A stretch of DNA of 64,000 bases from Escherichia coli (GTDB taxonomy: Bacteria; Pseudomonadota; Gammaproteobacteria; Enterobacterales; Enterobacteriaceae). Positions 30,001 to 33,000 of this stretch are shown one piece after another. Location: NCBI RefSeq assembly GCF_017348835.2, contig NZ_CP071375.1. One strand, given 5' to 3'. Positions within the stretch are counted from its first letter, which is position 1, and each line of letters opens with the position of its first letter. The position numbers were made by a program.

Positions 30001-33000
30001 CTGCGCGAGGCGCTGGCAAAACTGGTGAGCGAAGGCGTGCTGCTCAGTCGACGCGGCGGCGGGACGTTTATTCGCTGGCGTCATGACACATGGTCGGAGC
30101 AAAACATCGTCCAGCCGCTAAAAACGCTGATGGCCGATGATCCGGATTACAGTTTCGATATTCTGGAAGCACGCTACGCCATTGAAGCCAGCACCGCATG
30201 GCATGCGGCAATGCGCGCCACACCTGGCGACAAAGAAAAGATTCAGCTTTGCTTTGAAGCAACGCTAAGTGAAGACCCGGATATCGCCTCACAAGCGGAC
30301 GTTCGTTTTCATCTGGCGATTGCCGAAGCCTCACATAACATCGTGCTGCTGCAAACCATGCGCGGTTTCTTCGATGTCCTGCAATCCTCAGTGAAGCATA
30401 GCCGTCAGCGGATGTATCTGGTGCCACCGGTTTTTTCACAACTGACCGAACAACATCAGGCTGTCATTGACGCCATTTTTGCTGGTGATGCCGACGGGGC
30501 GCGTAAAGCAATGATGGCGCACCTTAGTTTTGTTCACACCACCATGAAACGATTCGATGAAGATCAGGCTCGCCACGCACGGATTACCCGCCTGCCCGGT
30601 GAGCATAATGAGCATTCGAGGGAGAAAAACGCATGATTATTTCCGCAGCCAGCGATTATCGCGCCGCAGCGCAACGCATTCTGCCGCCGTTCCTGTTCCA
30701 CTATATGGATGGGGGTGCATATTCTGAATACACGCTGCGCCGCAACGTGGAAGATTTGTCAGAAGTGGCGCTGCGCCAGCGTATTCTGAAAAACATGTCC
30801 GACTTAAGCCTGGAAACGACGCTGTTTAATGAGAAATTGTCGATGCCGGTGGCGCTAGGTCCGGTAGGTTTGTGTGGCATGTATGCGCGACGCGGCGAAG
30901 TTCAGGCAGCCAAAGCGGCGGACGCGCATGGCATTCCGTTTACTCTCTCGACGGTTTCCGTTTGCCCGATTGAAGAAGTCGCGCCAGCCATCAAGCGCCC
31001 AATGTGGTTCCAGCTTTATGTACTGCGCGATCGCGGCTTTATGCGTAACGCACTGGAGCGAGCAAAAGCAGCGGGTTGTTCGACACTGGTTTTCACCGTG
31101 GATATGCCGACACCGGGCGCACGCTACCGTGATGCGCATTCAGGTATGAGCGGCCCAAATGCGGCAATGCGCCGCTACTTGCAAGCGGTGACACATCCGC
31201 AATGGGCGTGGGATGTGGGCCTGAACGGTCGTCCACATGATTTAGGTAATATCTCAGCTTATCTCGGCAAACCGACCGGACTGGAAGATTACATCGGCTG
31301 GCTGGGGAATAACTTCGATCCGTCCATCTCATGGAAAGACCTTGAGTGGATCCGCGATTTCTGGGATGGCCCGATGGTGATCAAAGGGATCCTCGATCCG
31401 GAAGATGCGCGCGATGCAGTACGTTTTGGTGCTGATGGGATTGTAGTTTCTAACCACGGTGGCCGCCAGCTGGACGGTGTACTCTCTTCCGCTCGTGCGT
31501 TGCCCGCTATTGCAGATGCGGTGAAAGGTGATATAGCCATTCTGGCGGATAGCGGAATTCGTAACGGGCTTGATGTCGTGCGTATGATTGCGCTCGGTGC
31601 CGACACCGTACTGCTGGGTCGTGCTTTCTTGTATGCGCTGGCAACAGCGGGCCAGGCGGGTGTAGCTAACCTGCTAAATCTGATCGAAAAAGAGATGAAA
31701 GTGGCGATGACGCTGACTGGCGCGAAATCGATCAGCGAAATTACGCAAGATTCGCTGGTGCAGGGGTTGGGTAAAGAGTTTCCTGCGGCACTGGCTCCGA
31801 TGGCGAAAGGGAATGCGGCATAGTCGTTTGCGCCCCCTCCCCCTAACCCTCTCCCTCAGGGAGAGGGGACCGTTCGGCGCTGAATGTACTCCCTCACTCT
31901 GAAACGACACCGCACTCTTTTTTTCTCCCTCGCCCCTCCGGGGTGAGGGGAAAAGGCCGCACTGCTCACCAATTTTCTGCTATCCTGCCCCCGCACTAAG
32001 GGGGCAGTATGCTAAACATCGTACTTTACGAACCAGAAATTCCGCCAAATACTGGCAACATCATCCGTCTTTGCGCTAATACCGGCTTTCGTCTGCATAT
32101 CATCGAACCGATGGGATTTGCCTGGGACGATAAGCGCCTGCGCCGCGCGGGGCTGGACTATCACGAGTTTACCGCCGTTACGCGTCATCATGACTACAGC
32201 GCGTTCCTCGAAGCAGAAAATCCCCAGCGCCTGTTTGCCCTCACCACGAAAGGTACGCCTGCTCACAGCGCCGTAAGCTATCAGGATGGCGATTATCTGA
32301 TGTTCGGCCCGGAAACACGCGGCCTGCCAGCGAGCATTCTTGATGCCCTGCCCGCTGAACAAAAAATTCGGATTCCGATGGTGCCAGACAGCCGCAGCAT
32401 GAACCTGTCCAATGCGGTGTCGGTAGTGGTGTATGAAGCCTGGCGGCAGCTGGGATATCCGGGAGCGTTGTTGAGAGATTAGTGACGCCATGCCGGATAG
32501 ATGATTACATCGCATCCGGCACGATCACAGGACATCAGATCCCATCCCCATACTCAAATGTATGGTTAATACCATTGAAATGCTGGTCCATATCCATTGA
32601 TGGTTTATCGCTATCCGGCTTGCCGACAATGCGTGCCGGAACGCCAGCGGCGGTGGTATGCGGCGGCACCGGTTGCAGCACCACGGAACCTGCGCCAATC
32701 TTCGCGCCGCGCCCAACTTCAATATTGCCGAGAATTTTCGCGCCCGCGCCAATCATCACACCTTCACGAATTTTCGGGTGACGGTCGCCGCTAGTTTTCC
32801 CAGTACCGCCAAGGGTGACGGATTGCAGAATCGACACGTCGTTTTCAATCACCGCCGTTTCACCCACAACGATACCCGTGGCGTGGTCAAGCATGATACC
32901 GCGACCAATTTTTGCTGCCGGGTGAATATCAACCTGGAACGTCACAGAAACCTGGTTTTGCAGAAAGATTGCCAGTGCGCGACGCCCCTGATTCCACAAC

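What the first reader, a model, noticed from the sequence alone, without database searches (positions are those of the whole stretch)
31847..32011. Palindromic repeat family and a hairpin occluding the trmL ribosome-binding site
The lldD-trmL spacer carries GC-rich palindromes of the same family as those in the mtlA-mtlD spacer (ccctctcc...ggagaggg). Directly before the trmL ATG, an 8-bp perfect stem (ctgccccc / gggggcag) contains the Shine-Dalgarno sequence, so trmL translation could be structurally gated. It might equally be just the 3' end of a repeat element.
Basis: seen in the sequence. Interest (0 to 1): 0.35.

Follow-up and report, generated by a model that had tools for sequence, protein, structure and literature searches.

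The report
Read-through-silencing hairpin overlapping the trmL promoter
The GC-rich palindromes are the already-described BoxC repeats of E. coli, but the hairpin over the trmL ribosome-binding site is a separate, conserved element that wraps around trmL's own promoter, so it probably silences only transcripts that run in from the upstream operon.

Summary
The window is E. coli lldD-trmL.

**The palindromes.** They are BoxC elements (also called PIT or TMECO), a published repeat family. The K-12 copies in this spacer are already catalogued. The spacer is polymorphic: only about half of 5,420 E. coli genomes carry the full pair, and about 30% have a 47-nt BoxC-free spacer.

**The hairpin is not part of a repeat.**
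- It is present in all six spacer alleles aligned, including two BoxC-free ones.
- Its 70-nt block is identical in 5,337 of 5,420 genomes.
- It recurs with compensatory base changes in 52 Enterobacterales loci, whatever gene lies upstream (cpxA, a transporter, or lldD).

**The promoter.** Directly 5' of the hairpin, and overlapping it, is a conserved TGnTAnnnT motif, read here as an extended -10 promoter. A published reporter that clones the "entire 5' UTR" of trmL starts at G31993, the first loop base, 7 nt after that motif.

**Consequence.** trmL's own mRNA lacks the 5' arm, so its Shine-Dalgarno sequence is open. Only read-through RNA from upstream can form the hairpin. A published RNA 3' end maps exactly to the hairpin base, in a Rho-dependent region.

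**Best reading.** This is a fold-back insulator, as in IS10/IS50. The translation block itself is inferred, not shown.

The parts
31834..31867 (-). BoxC (TMECO/PIT) element, type A. Read on the minus strand: CCCTCTCCC-TGA-GGGAGAGGG-TTA-GGGGGAGGGG. On the + strand RNA it gives the 9-bp hairpin 31847-31867.
   Evidence: It corresponds to K-12 TMECO no. 17 (3781028-3781061, antisense) in Table 1 of Holder et al. 2015. It differs by one substitution at window 31840. The palindrome was confirmed.
31871..31871 (+). Position equivalent to the published 'primary' 3' end of the lldD mRNA (MG1655 3781065), 4 nt after the BoxC-A hairpin.
   Evidence: Term-seq table of Adams et al. 2021: 3781065(+), intrinsic terminator score 1.3, DirectRNA-seq coverage 338 upstream and 232 downstream. 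The coordinate was mapped from the lldD stop codon.
31927..31950 (+). BoxC type B remnant, CCCTCGCCCC-TCC-GGGGTGAGGGG. The middle G block is lost through a 12-nt deletion (CCGGGGAGAGGG) between CCGGGG direct repeats, relative to K-12.
   Evidence: Alignment with K-12. K-12 TMECO no. 18 is at 3781121-3781156.
31978..31986 (+). Inferred sigma-70 extended -10 promoter of trmL: TG (31978-31979), c, TATCCT (31981-31986). There is no conserved -35.
   Evidence: Counts over 52 distinct sequences from the Enterobacterales loci: T-15 48, G-14 51, T-12 52, A-11 52, T-10 50, T-7 52, with position -9 free. The inferred TSS is 7 nt downstream.
31993..31993 (+). Transcription start of trmL's own mRNA (MG1655 3781199), which is the first nucleotide of the hairpin loop. 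It gives a 16-nt leader.
   Evidence: The gene-specific part of cloning primer JW10180 for the 'entire 5' UTR + ORF' trmL fusion begins GCACTAAGGGGGCAG. This is indirect, because the dRNA-seq table itself could not be read.
31979..32012 (+). Fold-back hairpin. Core stem is 31985-31992 / 32000-32007 with loop 31993-31999. The outer pairs are G31979-C32012, C31980-G32011, A31982-U32010 and U31983-A32009. The 5' arm overlaps the end of the -10 and forms the GC-rich discriminator. The 3' arm is the SD plus the AUG.
   Evidence: Fold results. Covariation. z-scores and strand asymmetry. Invariance within E. coli.
31997..32004 (+). Shine-Dalgarno sequence UAAGGGGG, 4 nt before the AUG.
   Evidence: Sequence. 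Complementarity to the 16S 3' end is from established knowledge. Opening 31997-32011 costs 4.1 kcal/mol in the own-TSS RNA and 17.6-17.8 in read-through RNA.
32012..32012 (+). Published RNA 3' end (MG1655 3781218), exactly at the last paired base of the extended hairpin.
   Evidence: Adams et al. 2021 Term-seq: read count 1468, Rho score 3.68 ('Yes'), intrinsic terminator score 1.9.
32009..32482 (+). trmL coding sequence, tRNA(Leu) wobble 2'-O-methyltransferase. A published Rho termination region inside it (MG1655 3781497) maps to about window 32291. The first ~100 nt are C-rich and G-poor.
   Evidence: ORF and annotation. Rho region 3781497, score 8.4, p = 7.8e-46. C/G ratio is 1.6 for 31990-32069 and 1.9 for 32030-32109.
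18971..19025 (+). BoxC-like copy in the mtlA-mtlD spacer: CCCTCTCC-TCAC-GGAGAGGG-TTT-GGGTGAGGG (18971-19002), followed by a partial inverted copy (19008-19025). It lies next to REP sequences.
   Evidence: It is not among the 23 TMECO listed for K-12, so it is treated as a degenerate member.

Best explanation
Two unrelated things lie side by side.

(1) BoxC repeats. The GC-rich palindromes are a BoxC (PIT/TMECO) pair, a known, unstable, intergenic repeat family of enterobacteria. In RNA they fold as hairpins but do not terminate transcription. The first one marks the main 3' end of the lldD message.

(2) A fold-back insulator belonging to trmL. The hairpin is part of a compact module conserved across Enterobacterales: an extended -10 promoter (TGcTATCCT), a GC-rich discriminator, a TSS at G31993, and a G-rich SD.
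- The discriminator, together with the last two bases of the -10, is complementary to the SD.
- trmL's own transcript starts in the loop, so it lacks the 5' arm and has an open SD.
- RNA arriving from the upstream co-directional operon carries both arms. That operon is lldPRD here and cpxRA or a transporter gene in other genera.
- In such RNA the SD and AUG are locked in a hairpin of about -17 to -22 kcal/mol.
- The untranslated trmL RNA is then terminated by Rho inside the ORF and trimmed back to the hairpin base.
- The net effect is that TrmL synthesis is uncoupled from the inducible operon upstream.

Status of each step. Shown: repeat identity, hairpin conservation and covariation, independence from BoxC, and the in vivo 3' end at the hairpin base in a Rho-dependent region. 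Indirect: the TSS position. Inferred: the translation block on read-through RNA, its causal link to Rho termination, and any growth-rate or ppGpp control through the GC-rich discriminator.
For: BoxC identity:
- Pattern and sequence match.
- The K-12 copies in this spacer are listed as TMECO 17 and 18 and as HPGQ 43 and 44.
- The locus is polymorphic: only 2,714 of 5,420 E. coli genomes cover at least 80% of the spacer query, with spacers of 197, 185, 153, 72 and 47 nt.

Hairpin independent of BoxC:
- It is invariant in all six alleles aligned, including two 47-nt BoxC-free ones.
- The 70-nt block is identical in 5,337 of 5,420 genomes.

Hairpin under selection:
- All 52 distinct sequences from the Enterobacterales loci fold a hairpin at the same place, with C-G to G-C and U-A swaps at several positions.
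- The covariance model gives one + strand hit at this site in each of 51 sources (50 loci plus the window), and none in the Pasteurellaceae or other outgroup loci.
- 86.6% of cells are paired, against 53-63% when partners are slid. Six of 9 pairs change on both sides. The covariation score is 0.219 against 0.139, with 0 of 500 shuffles as high.
- Mean z is -3.6, and 47 of 51 sequences have z below -2.
- The + strand is more stable than the - strand in 41 of 51, owing to G.U pairs. This indicates sense RNA rather than DNA.

Promoter and TSS:
- TGnTAnnnT is conserved with position -9 free.
- The 'entire 5' UTR' primer starts at G31993, 7 nt after the -10.

Read-through and Rho:
- An RNA 3' end at MG1655 3781218 equals window 32012, the last paired base. 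Rho score 3.68, intrinsic terminator score 1.9.
- DirectRNA-seq coverage falls from 425 to 96 without bicyclomycin, but only from 942 to 784 with it.
- A Rho region lies inside trmL, and the ORF start is C-rich.
- The reporter that starts at G31993 showed no Rho effect, which its authors called unexplained. The model predicts this, because that construct lacks the 5' arm.

Energetics and context:
- Opening SD to AUG costs 4.1 kcal/mol in own-TSS RNA and 17.6-17.8 in read-through RNA.
- In the loci checked, the upstream gene differs but is co-directional and close.
Against: - The TSS is known only indirectly, from a cloning primer and promoter geometry. I could not read a TSS table: seven papers' supplements were tried without a hit, and an eighth paper was not held.
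- Adams et al. state that 3' ends 20 nt or less downstream of a TSS were removed. Yet 3781218, 19 nt after 3781199, is still in their table. The TSS may therefore be absent from their LB list, or the rule may have been applied differently.
- No measurement shows that read-through RNA is untranslated.
- C-runs opposite G-runs give 53-63% pairing even in slid controls, and the alignment was fitted to the model.
- The sequences are phylogenetically related, so the shuffle and Wilcoxon figures overstate significance.
- The hairpin could serve mainly as a 3'-end protector for the upstream mRNA.
Confidence: 0.6

Rival explanations
1. The hairpin sits in the 5' UTR of the main trmL mRNA and gates or attenuates its translation, as a constitutive brake, a thermosensor or a ligand/protein-operated switch.
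For: The SD and AUG are fully paired in a stable, conserved hairpin. Transcripts containing both arms do exist in vivo (3' end at the hairpin base).
Against: The conserved extended -10 overlaps the 5' arm. The published 'entire 5' UTR' begins at the first loop base, so the native mRNA lacks the 5' arm. Loop length and sequence vary freely, from 3 to 11 nt, which argues against a ligand- or protein-binding loop.
Confidence: 0.1
2. The hairpin's selected role is as a 3'-end barrier for the upstream operon's mRNA. It would stop 3'-to-5' exonucleases after Rho termination, much as REP hairpins do. On this view SD occlusion is incidental.
For: The Term-seq 3' end lies exactly at the hairpin base in a Rho-dependent region, and the intrinsic terminator score is low. 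In the cpxA-type loci the 35-60-nt spacer has no room for another structure.
Against: The module stays with trmL while the upstream gene changes (cpxA, MFS transporter, lldD). The 3' arm is always the SD itself. In E. coli the lldD message already has its main 3' end at the BoxC hairpin. The two roles are compatible, so this is more a second function than an exclusive rival.
Confidence: 0.2
3. There is no function for the pairing. A C-rich (non-template) GC discriminator and a G-rich SD are each selected for their own reasons and happen to be complementary.
For: Slid controls still pair 53-63% of cells because C-runs face G-runs. GCGCC-type discriminators resemble those of rRNA promoters (my own knowledge).
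Against: Both-sided compensatory changes occur at 6 of 9 pairs (27 cells, against 0-9 in slid controls). C-G, G-C and U-A swaps occur at the same alignment columns. 47 of 51 sequences have z below -2.
Confidence: 0.07
4. The hairpin is the terminal part of a BoxC or other repeat element.
For: It lies 35 nt from a BoxC copy and is also GC-rich. CCGCACT occurs both in its loop and flanking BoxC-B.
Against: It is present and identical in BoxC-free 47-nt spacers. It is single-copy in the 64-kb window. It is conserved next to cpxA or a transporter gene in genera with no BoxC at the locus.
Confidence: 0.02

Closest known systems
BoxC / PIT (potential intrastrand triplex) / TMECO / HPGQ repeats of E. 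coli (Holder et al. 2015, PMC4666352; Kaplan et al. 2016, PMC5100583)
   Same: The same three-block G/C-rich motif, an intergenic location, an inverted type A plus type B pair, and strain-to-strain instability. The K-12 copies in this very spacer are nos. 17 and 18 of the published list.
   Different: In this strain copy B has lost its middle block through a 12-nt deletion, and copy A has one substitution. The mtlA-mtlD copy has 8-nt blocks and a TTT loop and is not in the published list of 23.
Protection of IS10 and IS50 transposase genes from external promoters by fold-back of read-through transcripts (Davis, Simons & Kleckner 1985; Krebs & Reznikoff 1986; Schulz & Reznikoff 1991; recalled from memory, not read here)
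   Same: An inverted repeat whose 3' arm covers the ribosome-binding site. The element's own promoter starts transcription within or after the 5' arm, so only transcripts from outside can fold and are poorly translated.
   Different: Here the gene is a chromosomal housekeeping tRNA-modification gene, not a transposase. The 5' arm doubles as the promoter discriminator. The translation block has not been measured. There is also a link to Rho termination and to 3'-end formation.
SD-sequestering stem-loop in the IS200 tnpA 5' UTR (Ellis et al. 2015, PMC4513863)
   Same: A stable stem-loop that pairs the SD and inhibits 30S binding.
   Different: In IS200 both arms lie in the native 5' UTR, so repression is constitutive. 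At trmL the native mRNA appears to lack the 5' arm.
REP/BIME hairpins as 3'-end stabilisers of upstream mRNA (established knowledge)
   Same: A stable hairpin without a U-tract at which RNA 3' ends accumulate. This applies both to the BoxC-A hairpin (3781065) and to the trmL hairpin (3781218).
   Different: The trmL hairpin is single-copy, is not a dispersed repeat, and overlaps a promoter and an RBS.

Membership tests
BoxC / PIT / TMECO repeat | Three G/C-rich 9-10-nt blocks (CCCTCKCCC, GGGAGAGGG, GGGTGAGGG) separated by a 3-5-nt loop and a TTA (type A) or CCG (type B) loop. | tested here: met
   Copy A at 31834-31867 (minus strand) has all three blocks and the TTA loop. Copy B at 31927-31950 retains only the first and third blocks after a 12-nt deletion. 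The mtl copy has 8-nt blocks and a TTT loop.
BoxC / PIT / TMECO repeat | Intergenic, multi-copy, often as an inverted A + B pair, at loci that are rearranged between strains. | tested here: met
   Both spacers are intergenic. The A(-)/B(+) pair is as in Table 1, nos. 17 + 18. Only 2,714 of 5,420 genomes keep the full spacer, and 4,068 of 5,425 keep the mtl spacer. I did not recount genome-wide copy number; 23 in MG1655 is the published figure.
BoxC / PIT / TMECO repeat | Formation of an intrastrand triplex or G-quadruplex by the G-rich strand. | not testable with these tools
   Shown in vitro by others. Copy B in this strain lacks the third strand needed for a triplex.
RBS-sequestering hairpin in the gene's own 5' UTR (translational operator) | The SD and/or start codon are base-paired in a stable, conserved stem. 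| tested here: met
RBS-sequestering hairpin in the gene's own 5' UTR (translational operator) | Both arms are present in the gene's primary transcript. | tested here: not met
   The extended -10 overlaps the 5' arm. The published 5' UTR starts at G31993, in the loop. This evidence is indirect.
Fold-back inhibition of read-through transcripts (IS10/IS50 type) | The native TSS lies inside the inverted repeat, so only externally initiated RNA carries both arms. | tested here: met
   (indirect TSS evidence).
Fold-back inhibition of read-through transcripts (IS10/IS50 type) | Transcription does enter from upstream, and the hairpin forms on that RNA in vivo. | tested here: met
   The published Term-seq 3' end is at the hairpin base. 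DirectRNA-seq coverage is continuous across the spacer. Neither BoxC hairpin scores as an intrinsic terminator.
Fold-back inhibition of read-through transcripts (IS10/IS50 type) | Read-through transcripts are translated much less than native ones. | not testable with these tools
   Only a computed difference of 13.5 kcal/mol in opening energy is available.
Intrinsic (Rho-independent) terminator | A GC-rich stem followed by a U-tract. | tested here: not met
   The stem is followed by UAUGCUAAAC. The scan finds no terminator at either the BoxC or the trmL hairpin. Published intrinsic terminator scores are 1.3 and 1.9, below the threshold of 3.
Sigma-70 extended -10 promoter | TG at -15/-14, T-12, A-11 and T-7, with the TSS 5-9 nt downstream. 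| tested here: met
   TGcTATCCT at 31978-31986. These positions are conserved in 48-52 of 52 sequences while -9 is free. The TSS is 7 nt downstream. Promoter activity itself was not tested.
Any Rfam family | A match at the family's gathering score. | tested here: not met
   No hit in 31780-32100. The best hits score 11-19 bits against gathering scores of 34-123.

The most novel reading that the evidence does not exclude
Across Enterobacterales, trmL carries a promoter-embedded fold-back switch. The promoter discriminator is the anti-SD arm, so the transcript's origin decides whether trmL can be translated. RNA from trmL's own promoter is open and translated. RNA reading in from the inducible upstream operon (cpxRA, lldPRD) is closed, becomes a Rho substrate, and is trimmed to a hairpin-capped 3' end. 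The own promoter may also be ppGpp-sensitive because of its rRNA-like GC discriminator. This would be a terminator-free way of insulating a housekeeping gene. It would also explain why the published trmL reporter showed no Rho effect.
Probability: 0.5. Interest if true: 0.55.

Novelty: new member of a known kind. Interest (0 to 1): 0.4.

Why it matters
- The repeat half of the finding adds nothing new: BoxC is described, and these very copies are catalogued.
- The hairpin half is more useful. It looks like an IS10/IS50-style fold-back inhibition of read-through transcripts, but in a conserved housekeeping gene.
- One 34-nt segment (31979-32012), together with the TG at 31978, would serve at once as promoter -10, discriminator, anti-SD arm, SD, start codon and RNA 3'-end cap.
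- If confirmed, it shows how bacteria can pack a constitutive gene directly behind an inducible operon without a terminator.
- It gives a concrete explanation for a discrepancy left open in a published Rho-termination survey.
- It also warns annotators that an SD-occluding hairpin cannot be interpreted without knowing the TSS.

Tried and rejected
- **Rfam.** The whole window at gathering score and the spacer at E up to 10 gave nothing relevant.
- **Promoter and terminator scan.** It found no promoter, because it requires a -35 match, and no terminator at the hairpins.
- **Direct TSS tables.** Supplements of seven papers gave no hits or were not held as text. These were the Cappable-seq, SMRT-Cappable-seq, Kim 2012, Rend-seq annotation, Conway 2014, Mendoza-Vargas 2009 and EDL933 Cappable-seq papers. 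Thomason 2015 is not held at all. The TSS therefore rests on the Adams et al. primer.
- **RNAalifold on the plain MAFFT alignment.** It predicted no structure, because the hairpins sit in three different registers. This was solved with a covariance model.
- **tRNA anticodon-stem-loop mimic for TrmL autoregulation.** The E. coli loop is 7 nt, but GCACUAA does not resemble the UUCAAAA or UUUAAAA loops of tRNA-Leu (from memory). Loop length also ranges from 3 to 11 nt across species. Rejected.
- **DNA cruciform or antisense-RNA structure.** Disfavoured because G.U pairs make the sense strand more stable in 41 of 51 sequences.
- **Hairpin as part of BoxC.** Rejected.
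Full report
**Observation.** The window is an E. coli chromosome segment: lldD at 30633-31823, trmL at 32009-32482, with mtlA and mtlD further upstream.
- The stem CTGCCCCC (31985-31992) / GGGGGCAG (32000-32007), with a 7-nt loop, ends 1 nt before the trmL ATG. The pattern is unique in the 64 kb and absent from shuffles.
- Folding extends the helix to G31979-C32012. The Shine-Dalgarno sequence UAAGGGGG and the whole AUG are therefore paired. The MFE is -22.6 kcal/mol, z = -3.7.

**The repeats are a known family.** They are BoxC elements, also published as PIT elements, TMECO triplex motifs and HPGQ quadruplex/hairpin motifs.
- Table 1 of Holder et al. 2015 lists the two K-12 copies of this very spacer. 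No. 17 is type A, antisense, at 3781028-3781061. No. 18 is type B, sense, at 3781121-3781156. Together they form one of five inverted A + B pairs.
- Kaplan et al. 2016 list the same two copies between lldD and trmL.
- In this window copy A (31834-31867, minus strand) has one substitution.
- Copy B (31927-31950) has lost its middle block through a 12-nt deletion between CCGGGG direct repeats.
- The mtlA-mtlD copy (18971-19002, plus a partial inverted copy) is a degenerate member. It sits next to REP sequences and is not in the published list.

**The spacer is unstable, as published for BoxC loci.** Only 2,714 of 5,420 E. coli genomes cover at least 80% of the spacer query. The alleles have spacers of 197, 185, 153, 72 and 47 nt. 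Judged from the evenly spaced sample:
- about half the genomes carry both BoxC copies;
- about 30% have the 47-nt BoxC-free spacer.

**The hairpin is not part of the repeat.**
- All six spacer alleles aligned share an identical block from about 31978 through the ATG. This includes the two 47-nt alleles with no BoxC.
- The 70-nt block 31976-32045 is identical in 5,337 of 5,420 genomes.
- Loci encoding TrmL were fetched from 80 species. Nearly all Enterobacterales among them show the same arrangement: ttTGcTAtnCT, then at once a GC-rich hairpin whose 3' arm is the G-rich SD, then the ATG 1-7 nt later. The genera include Escherichia, Citrobacter, Enterobacter, Serratia, Hafnia, Edwardsiella, Erwinia, Pantoea, Yersinia, Rahnella, Photorhabdus, Budvicia and Tatumella.
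- The module is absent from Pasteurellaceae, Xenorhabdus, Moellerella, Rheinheimera and Marinobacter.
- The upstream gene differs between lineages. It is cpxA in the Serratia, Erwinia, Hafnia and Yersinia loci checked, an MFS transporter in Citrobacter and Lelliottia, and lldD in Escherichia and Enterobacter. In the loci checked it is co-directional and close. The module therefore belongs to trmL.

**Pairing is under selection.**
- Stem sequences differ between lineages but stay complementary:

| Lineage | 5' arm / 3' arm |
|---|---|
| E. coli | CTGCCCCC / GGGGGCAG |
| Rahnella | GCGTCCCTC / GGGGGACGC |
| Erwinia | GCGGCCCTT / GAGGGCCGC |
| Pantoea | GGCCCTCG / CGGGGGCC |

- At fixed distances from the -10 motif there are C-G, G-C, U-A and G.U alternatives.
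- RNAalifold on the raw MAFFT alignment failed because of register shifts. I therefore built a covariance model from 16 sequences. It gave one + strand hit at the expected place in each of 51 sources (50 loci plus the window, where the hit is 31978-32011), and none in the outgroup loci.
- On that alignment 86.6% of cells pair, against 53-63% when partners are slid. Six of 9 pairs change on both sides (27 cells, against 0-9 slid). The covariation score is 0.219 against 0.139, and 0 of 500 shuffles reach it.
- Caveats: the alignment was fitted to the model, and the sequences are related.
- Independently, 47 of 51 distinct hairpin regions have z below -2 against dinucleotide shuffles.
- The sense strand folds better than the antisense strand in 41 of 51, because of G.U pairs. 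This indicates sense RNA rather than DNA.

**The twist: a promoter overlaps the hairpin.**
- The conserved motif just 5' of the hairpin, and overlapping it, has the signature of a sigma-70 extended -10 element. Across 52 distinct sequences the counts are T-15 48, G-14 51, T-12 52, A-11 52, T-10 50 and T-7 52. Position -9 varies freely, and nothing further upstream is conserved.
- In the window this is TG (31978-31979), c, then TATCCT (31981-31986). Its last two bases are the first two of the 5' arm.
- A start 7 nt downstream would be G31993, the first loop base.
- Adams et al. [quoted passage not shown] The gene-specific part of their forward primer is GCACTAAGGGGGCAG, which starts exactly at G31993, or MG1655 3781199. 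Other primers in that table begin at known mRNA 5' ends, for example the cold-box sequences of cspB and cspG (my own knowledge).
- trmL's own mRNA therefore has a 16-nt leader without the 5' arm.
- Opening SD to AUG is computed to cost 4.1 kcal/mol in that RNA, against 17.6-17.8 in RNA that starts upstream.

**What the hairpin then does.** RNA containing both arms must come from upstream, and the published data show that it exists.
- The lldD message has its "primary" 3' end at 3781065, equivalent to window 31871. That is 4 nt after the BoxC-A hairpin, with an intrinsic terminator score of 1.3. Coverage continues past it (338 upstream, 232 downstream).
- A second 3' end lies at 3781218, equal to window 32012, which is exactly the last paired base of the extended hairpin. 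Its Rho score is 3.68 and its intrinsic terminator score is 1.9.
- Coverage across that point falls from 425 to 96 without bicyclomycin, but only from 942 to 784 with it.
- A strong Rho termination region lies inside trmL at 3781497. The start of the ORF is C-rich and G-poor.
- The reporter starting at G31993 showed no Rho dependence, which the authors could not explain.
- All of this fits one model. Read-through RNA folds the hairpin, trmL is not translated from it, Rho terminates in the naked ORF, and exonucleases trim back to the hairpin. RNA from trmL's own promoter is open, translated and Rho-resistant.
- The translation block, and its causal link to Rho, are inferred and have not been measured.

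**Comparison with known systems.**
- The logic is that of IS10 and IS50, which protect their transposase genes from external promoters by fold-back of read-through transcripts (from memory). It is also related to the SD-sequestering stem of IS200.
- The element is not an intrinsic terminator, because it has no U-tract. It matches no Rfam family.
- I found no paper describing this trmL module.

**Verdict.**
- The repeat part of the finding is already known.
It is best seen as a new example of a known mechanism.
- Main uncertainty: the TSS is known only indirectly. One filtering rule in Adams et al. (removal of 3' ends 20 nt or less from a TSS) sits awkwardly with the 19-nt distance seen here.

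Noticed in passing
L002:383-418 (E. coli Res13-Lact-PER02-33 lldD-trmL spacer): In the 153-nt spacer allele the segment between the two BoxC halves is replaced by a 36-nt near-perfect palindrome, CTGTCTCTTGATCAGATCTCCTGATCAAGAGACAG. Its first 19 nt equal the IS50 inside end as I recall it. The 36-mer occurs in 1,838 of 5,426 E. coli genomes, and elsewhere it lies at the ends of annotated IS4-family transposase genes. It looks like a back-to-back terminal-repeat footprint or a minimal MITE.
   Followed up: partly
window 31910-31916, 31957-31963, 31991-31997: The 7-mer CCGCACT occurs three times within 90 nt. Two copies flank BoxC copy B and the third spans the end of the hairpin's 5' arm and its loop. 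This may be a trace of how BoxC was inserted or duplicated at this site, or it may be chance.
   Followed up: no
window 31937-31938 versus L001 (K-12): BoxC copy B in this strain lacks 12 nt (CCGGGGAGAGGG) relative to K-12. The deletion lies between CCGGGG direct repeats, so it is slippage-like. It removes the middle G block, so this copy can form only a hairpin and not the published triplex. By the spread sample, roughly 30% of E. coli genomes have this form and about 20% have the K-12 form.
   Followed up: partly
L021:1275-1450 (Pseudocitrobacter faecalis, upstream of trmL): There are three tandem ~43-nt units, each containing a partial BoxC (gtcccctctccctcagggagaaaaccctcaccatgcacgacct). They lie between a complete inverted BoxC and a BoxC that abuts the trmL promoter.
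   Followed up: no
L012, L017, L021, L026 (about 46-55 nt upstream of the trmL ATG): In Enterobacter asburiae, Pluralibacter, Pseudocitrobacter and Kluyvera, the last BoxC block (GGGTGAGGG or similar) ends 8-12 nt upstream of the TG of the extended -10, which is where a -35 would be. BoxC next to the trmL promoter is therefore either old or recurrent.
   Followed up: no
window 31824-32008 (literature on the K-12 lldD/yibK spacer): Genomic SELEX with sigma-28 and sigma-24 RNA polymerase holoenzymes gave peaks in both the lldD/yibK spacer and the pstB/pstA spacer (PMC5493296). Both spacers contain BoxC elements. This may reflect binding to the G-rich structured DNA rather than real promoters.
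   Followed up: no
window 31871 (MG1655 3781065): The published primary 3' end of the lldD mRNA lies 4 nt after the BoxC-A hairpin, with a low intrinsic terminator score. BoxC hairpins may therefore act as REP-like 3'-end barriers in RNA. The BoxC accounts read here (Holder's paper and its summary of earlier PIT work) do not report such a role.
   Followed up: partly
window 18826-19055 (mtlA-mtlD spacer): From 5' to 3' the spacer holds a hairpin right after mtlA (CCCACCCTCTCC-ACAT-GGAGAAGGTGGGG, 18833-18861), two REP-like palindromes, and the degenerate BoxC pair. Only 4,068 of 5,425 genomes keep at least 80% of it.
   Followed up: partly
window 31985 (position -8 of the -10 hexamer) and the 52 aligned loci: C at -8 of the -10 hexamer is conserved in 51 of 52 sequences, although the sigma-70 consensus there is A. 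In the E. coli clade this C is the first base of the 5' arm (it pairs with G32007), but in many other genera it is unpaired.
   Followed up: no
window 55997-56035 (-): This is the only Rfam match above gathering score in the window: a JUMPstart RNA element (55.2 bits). It is unrelated to this finding.
   Followed up: no
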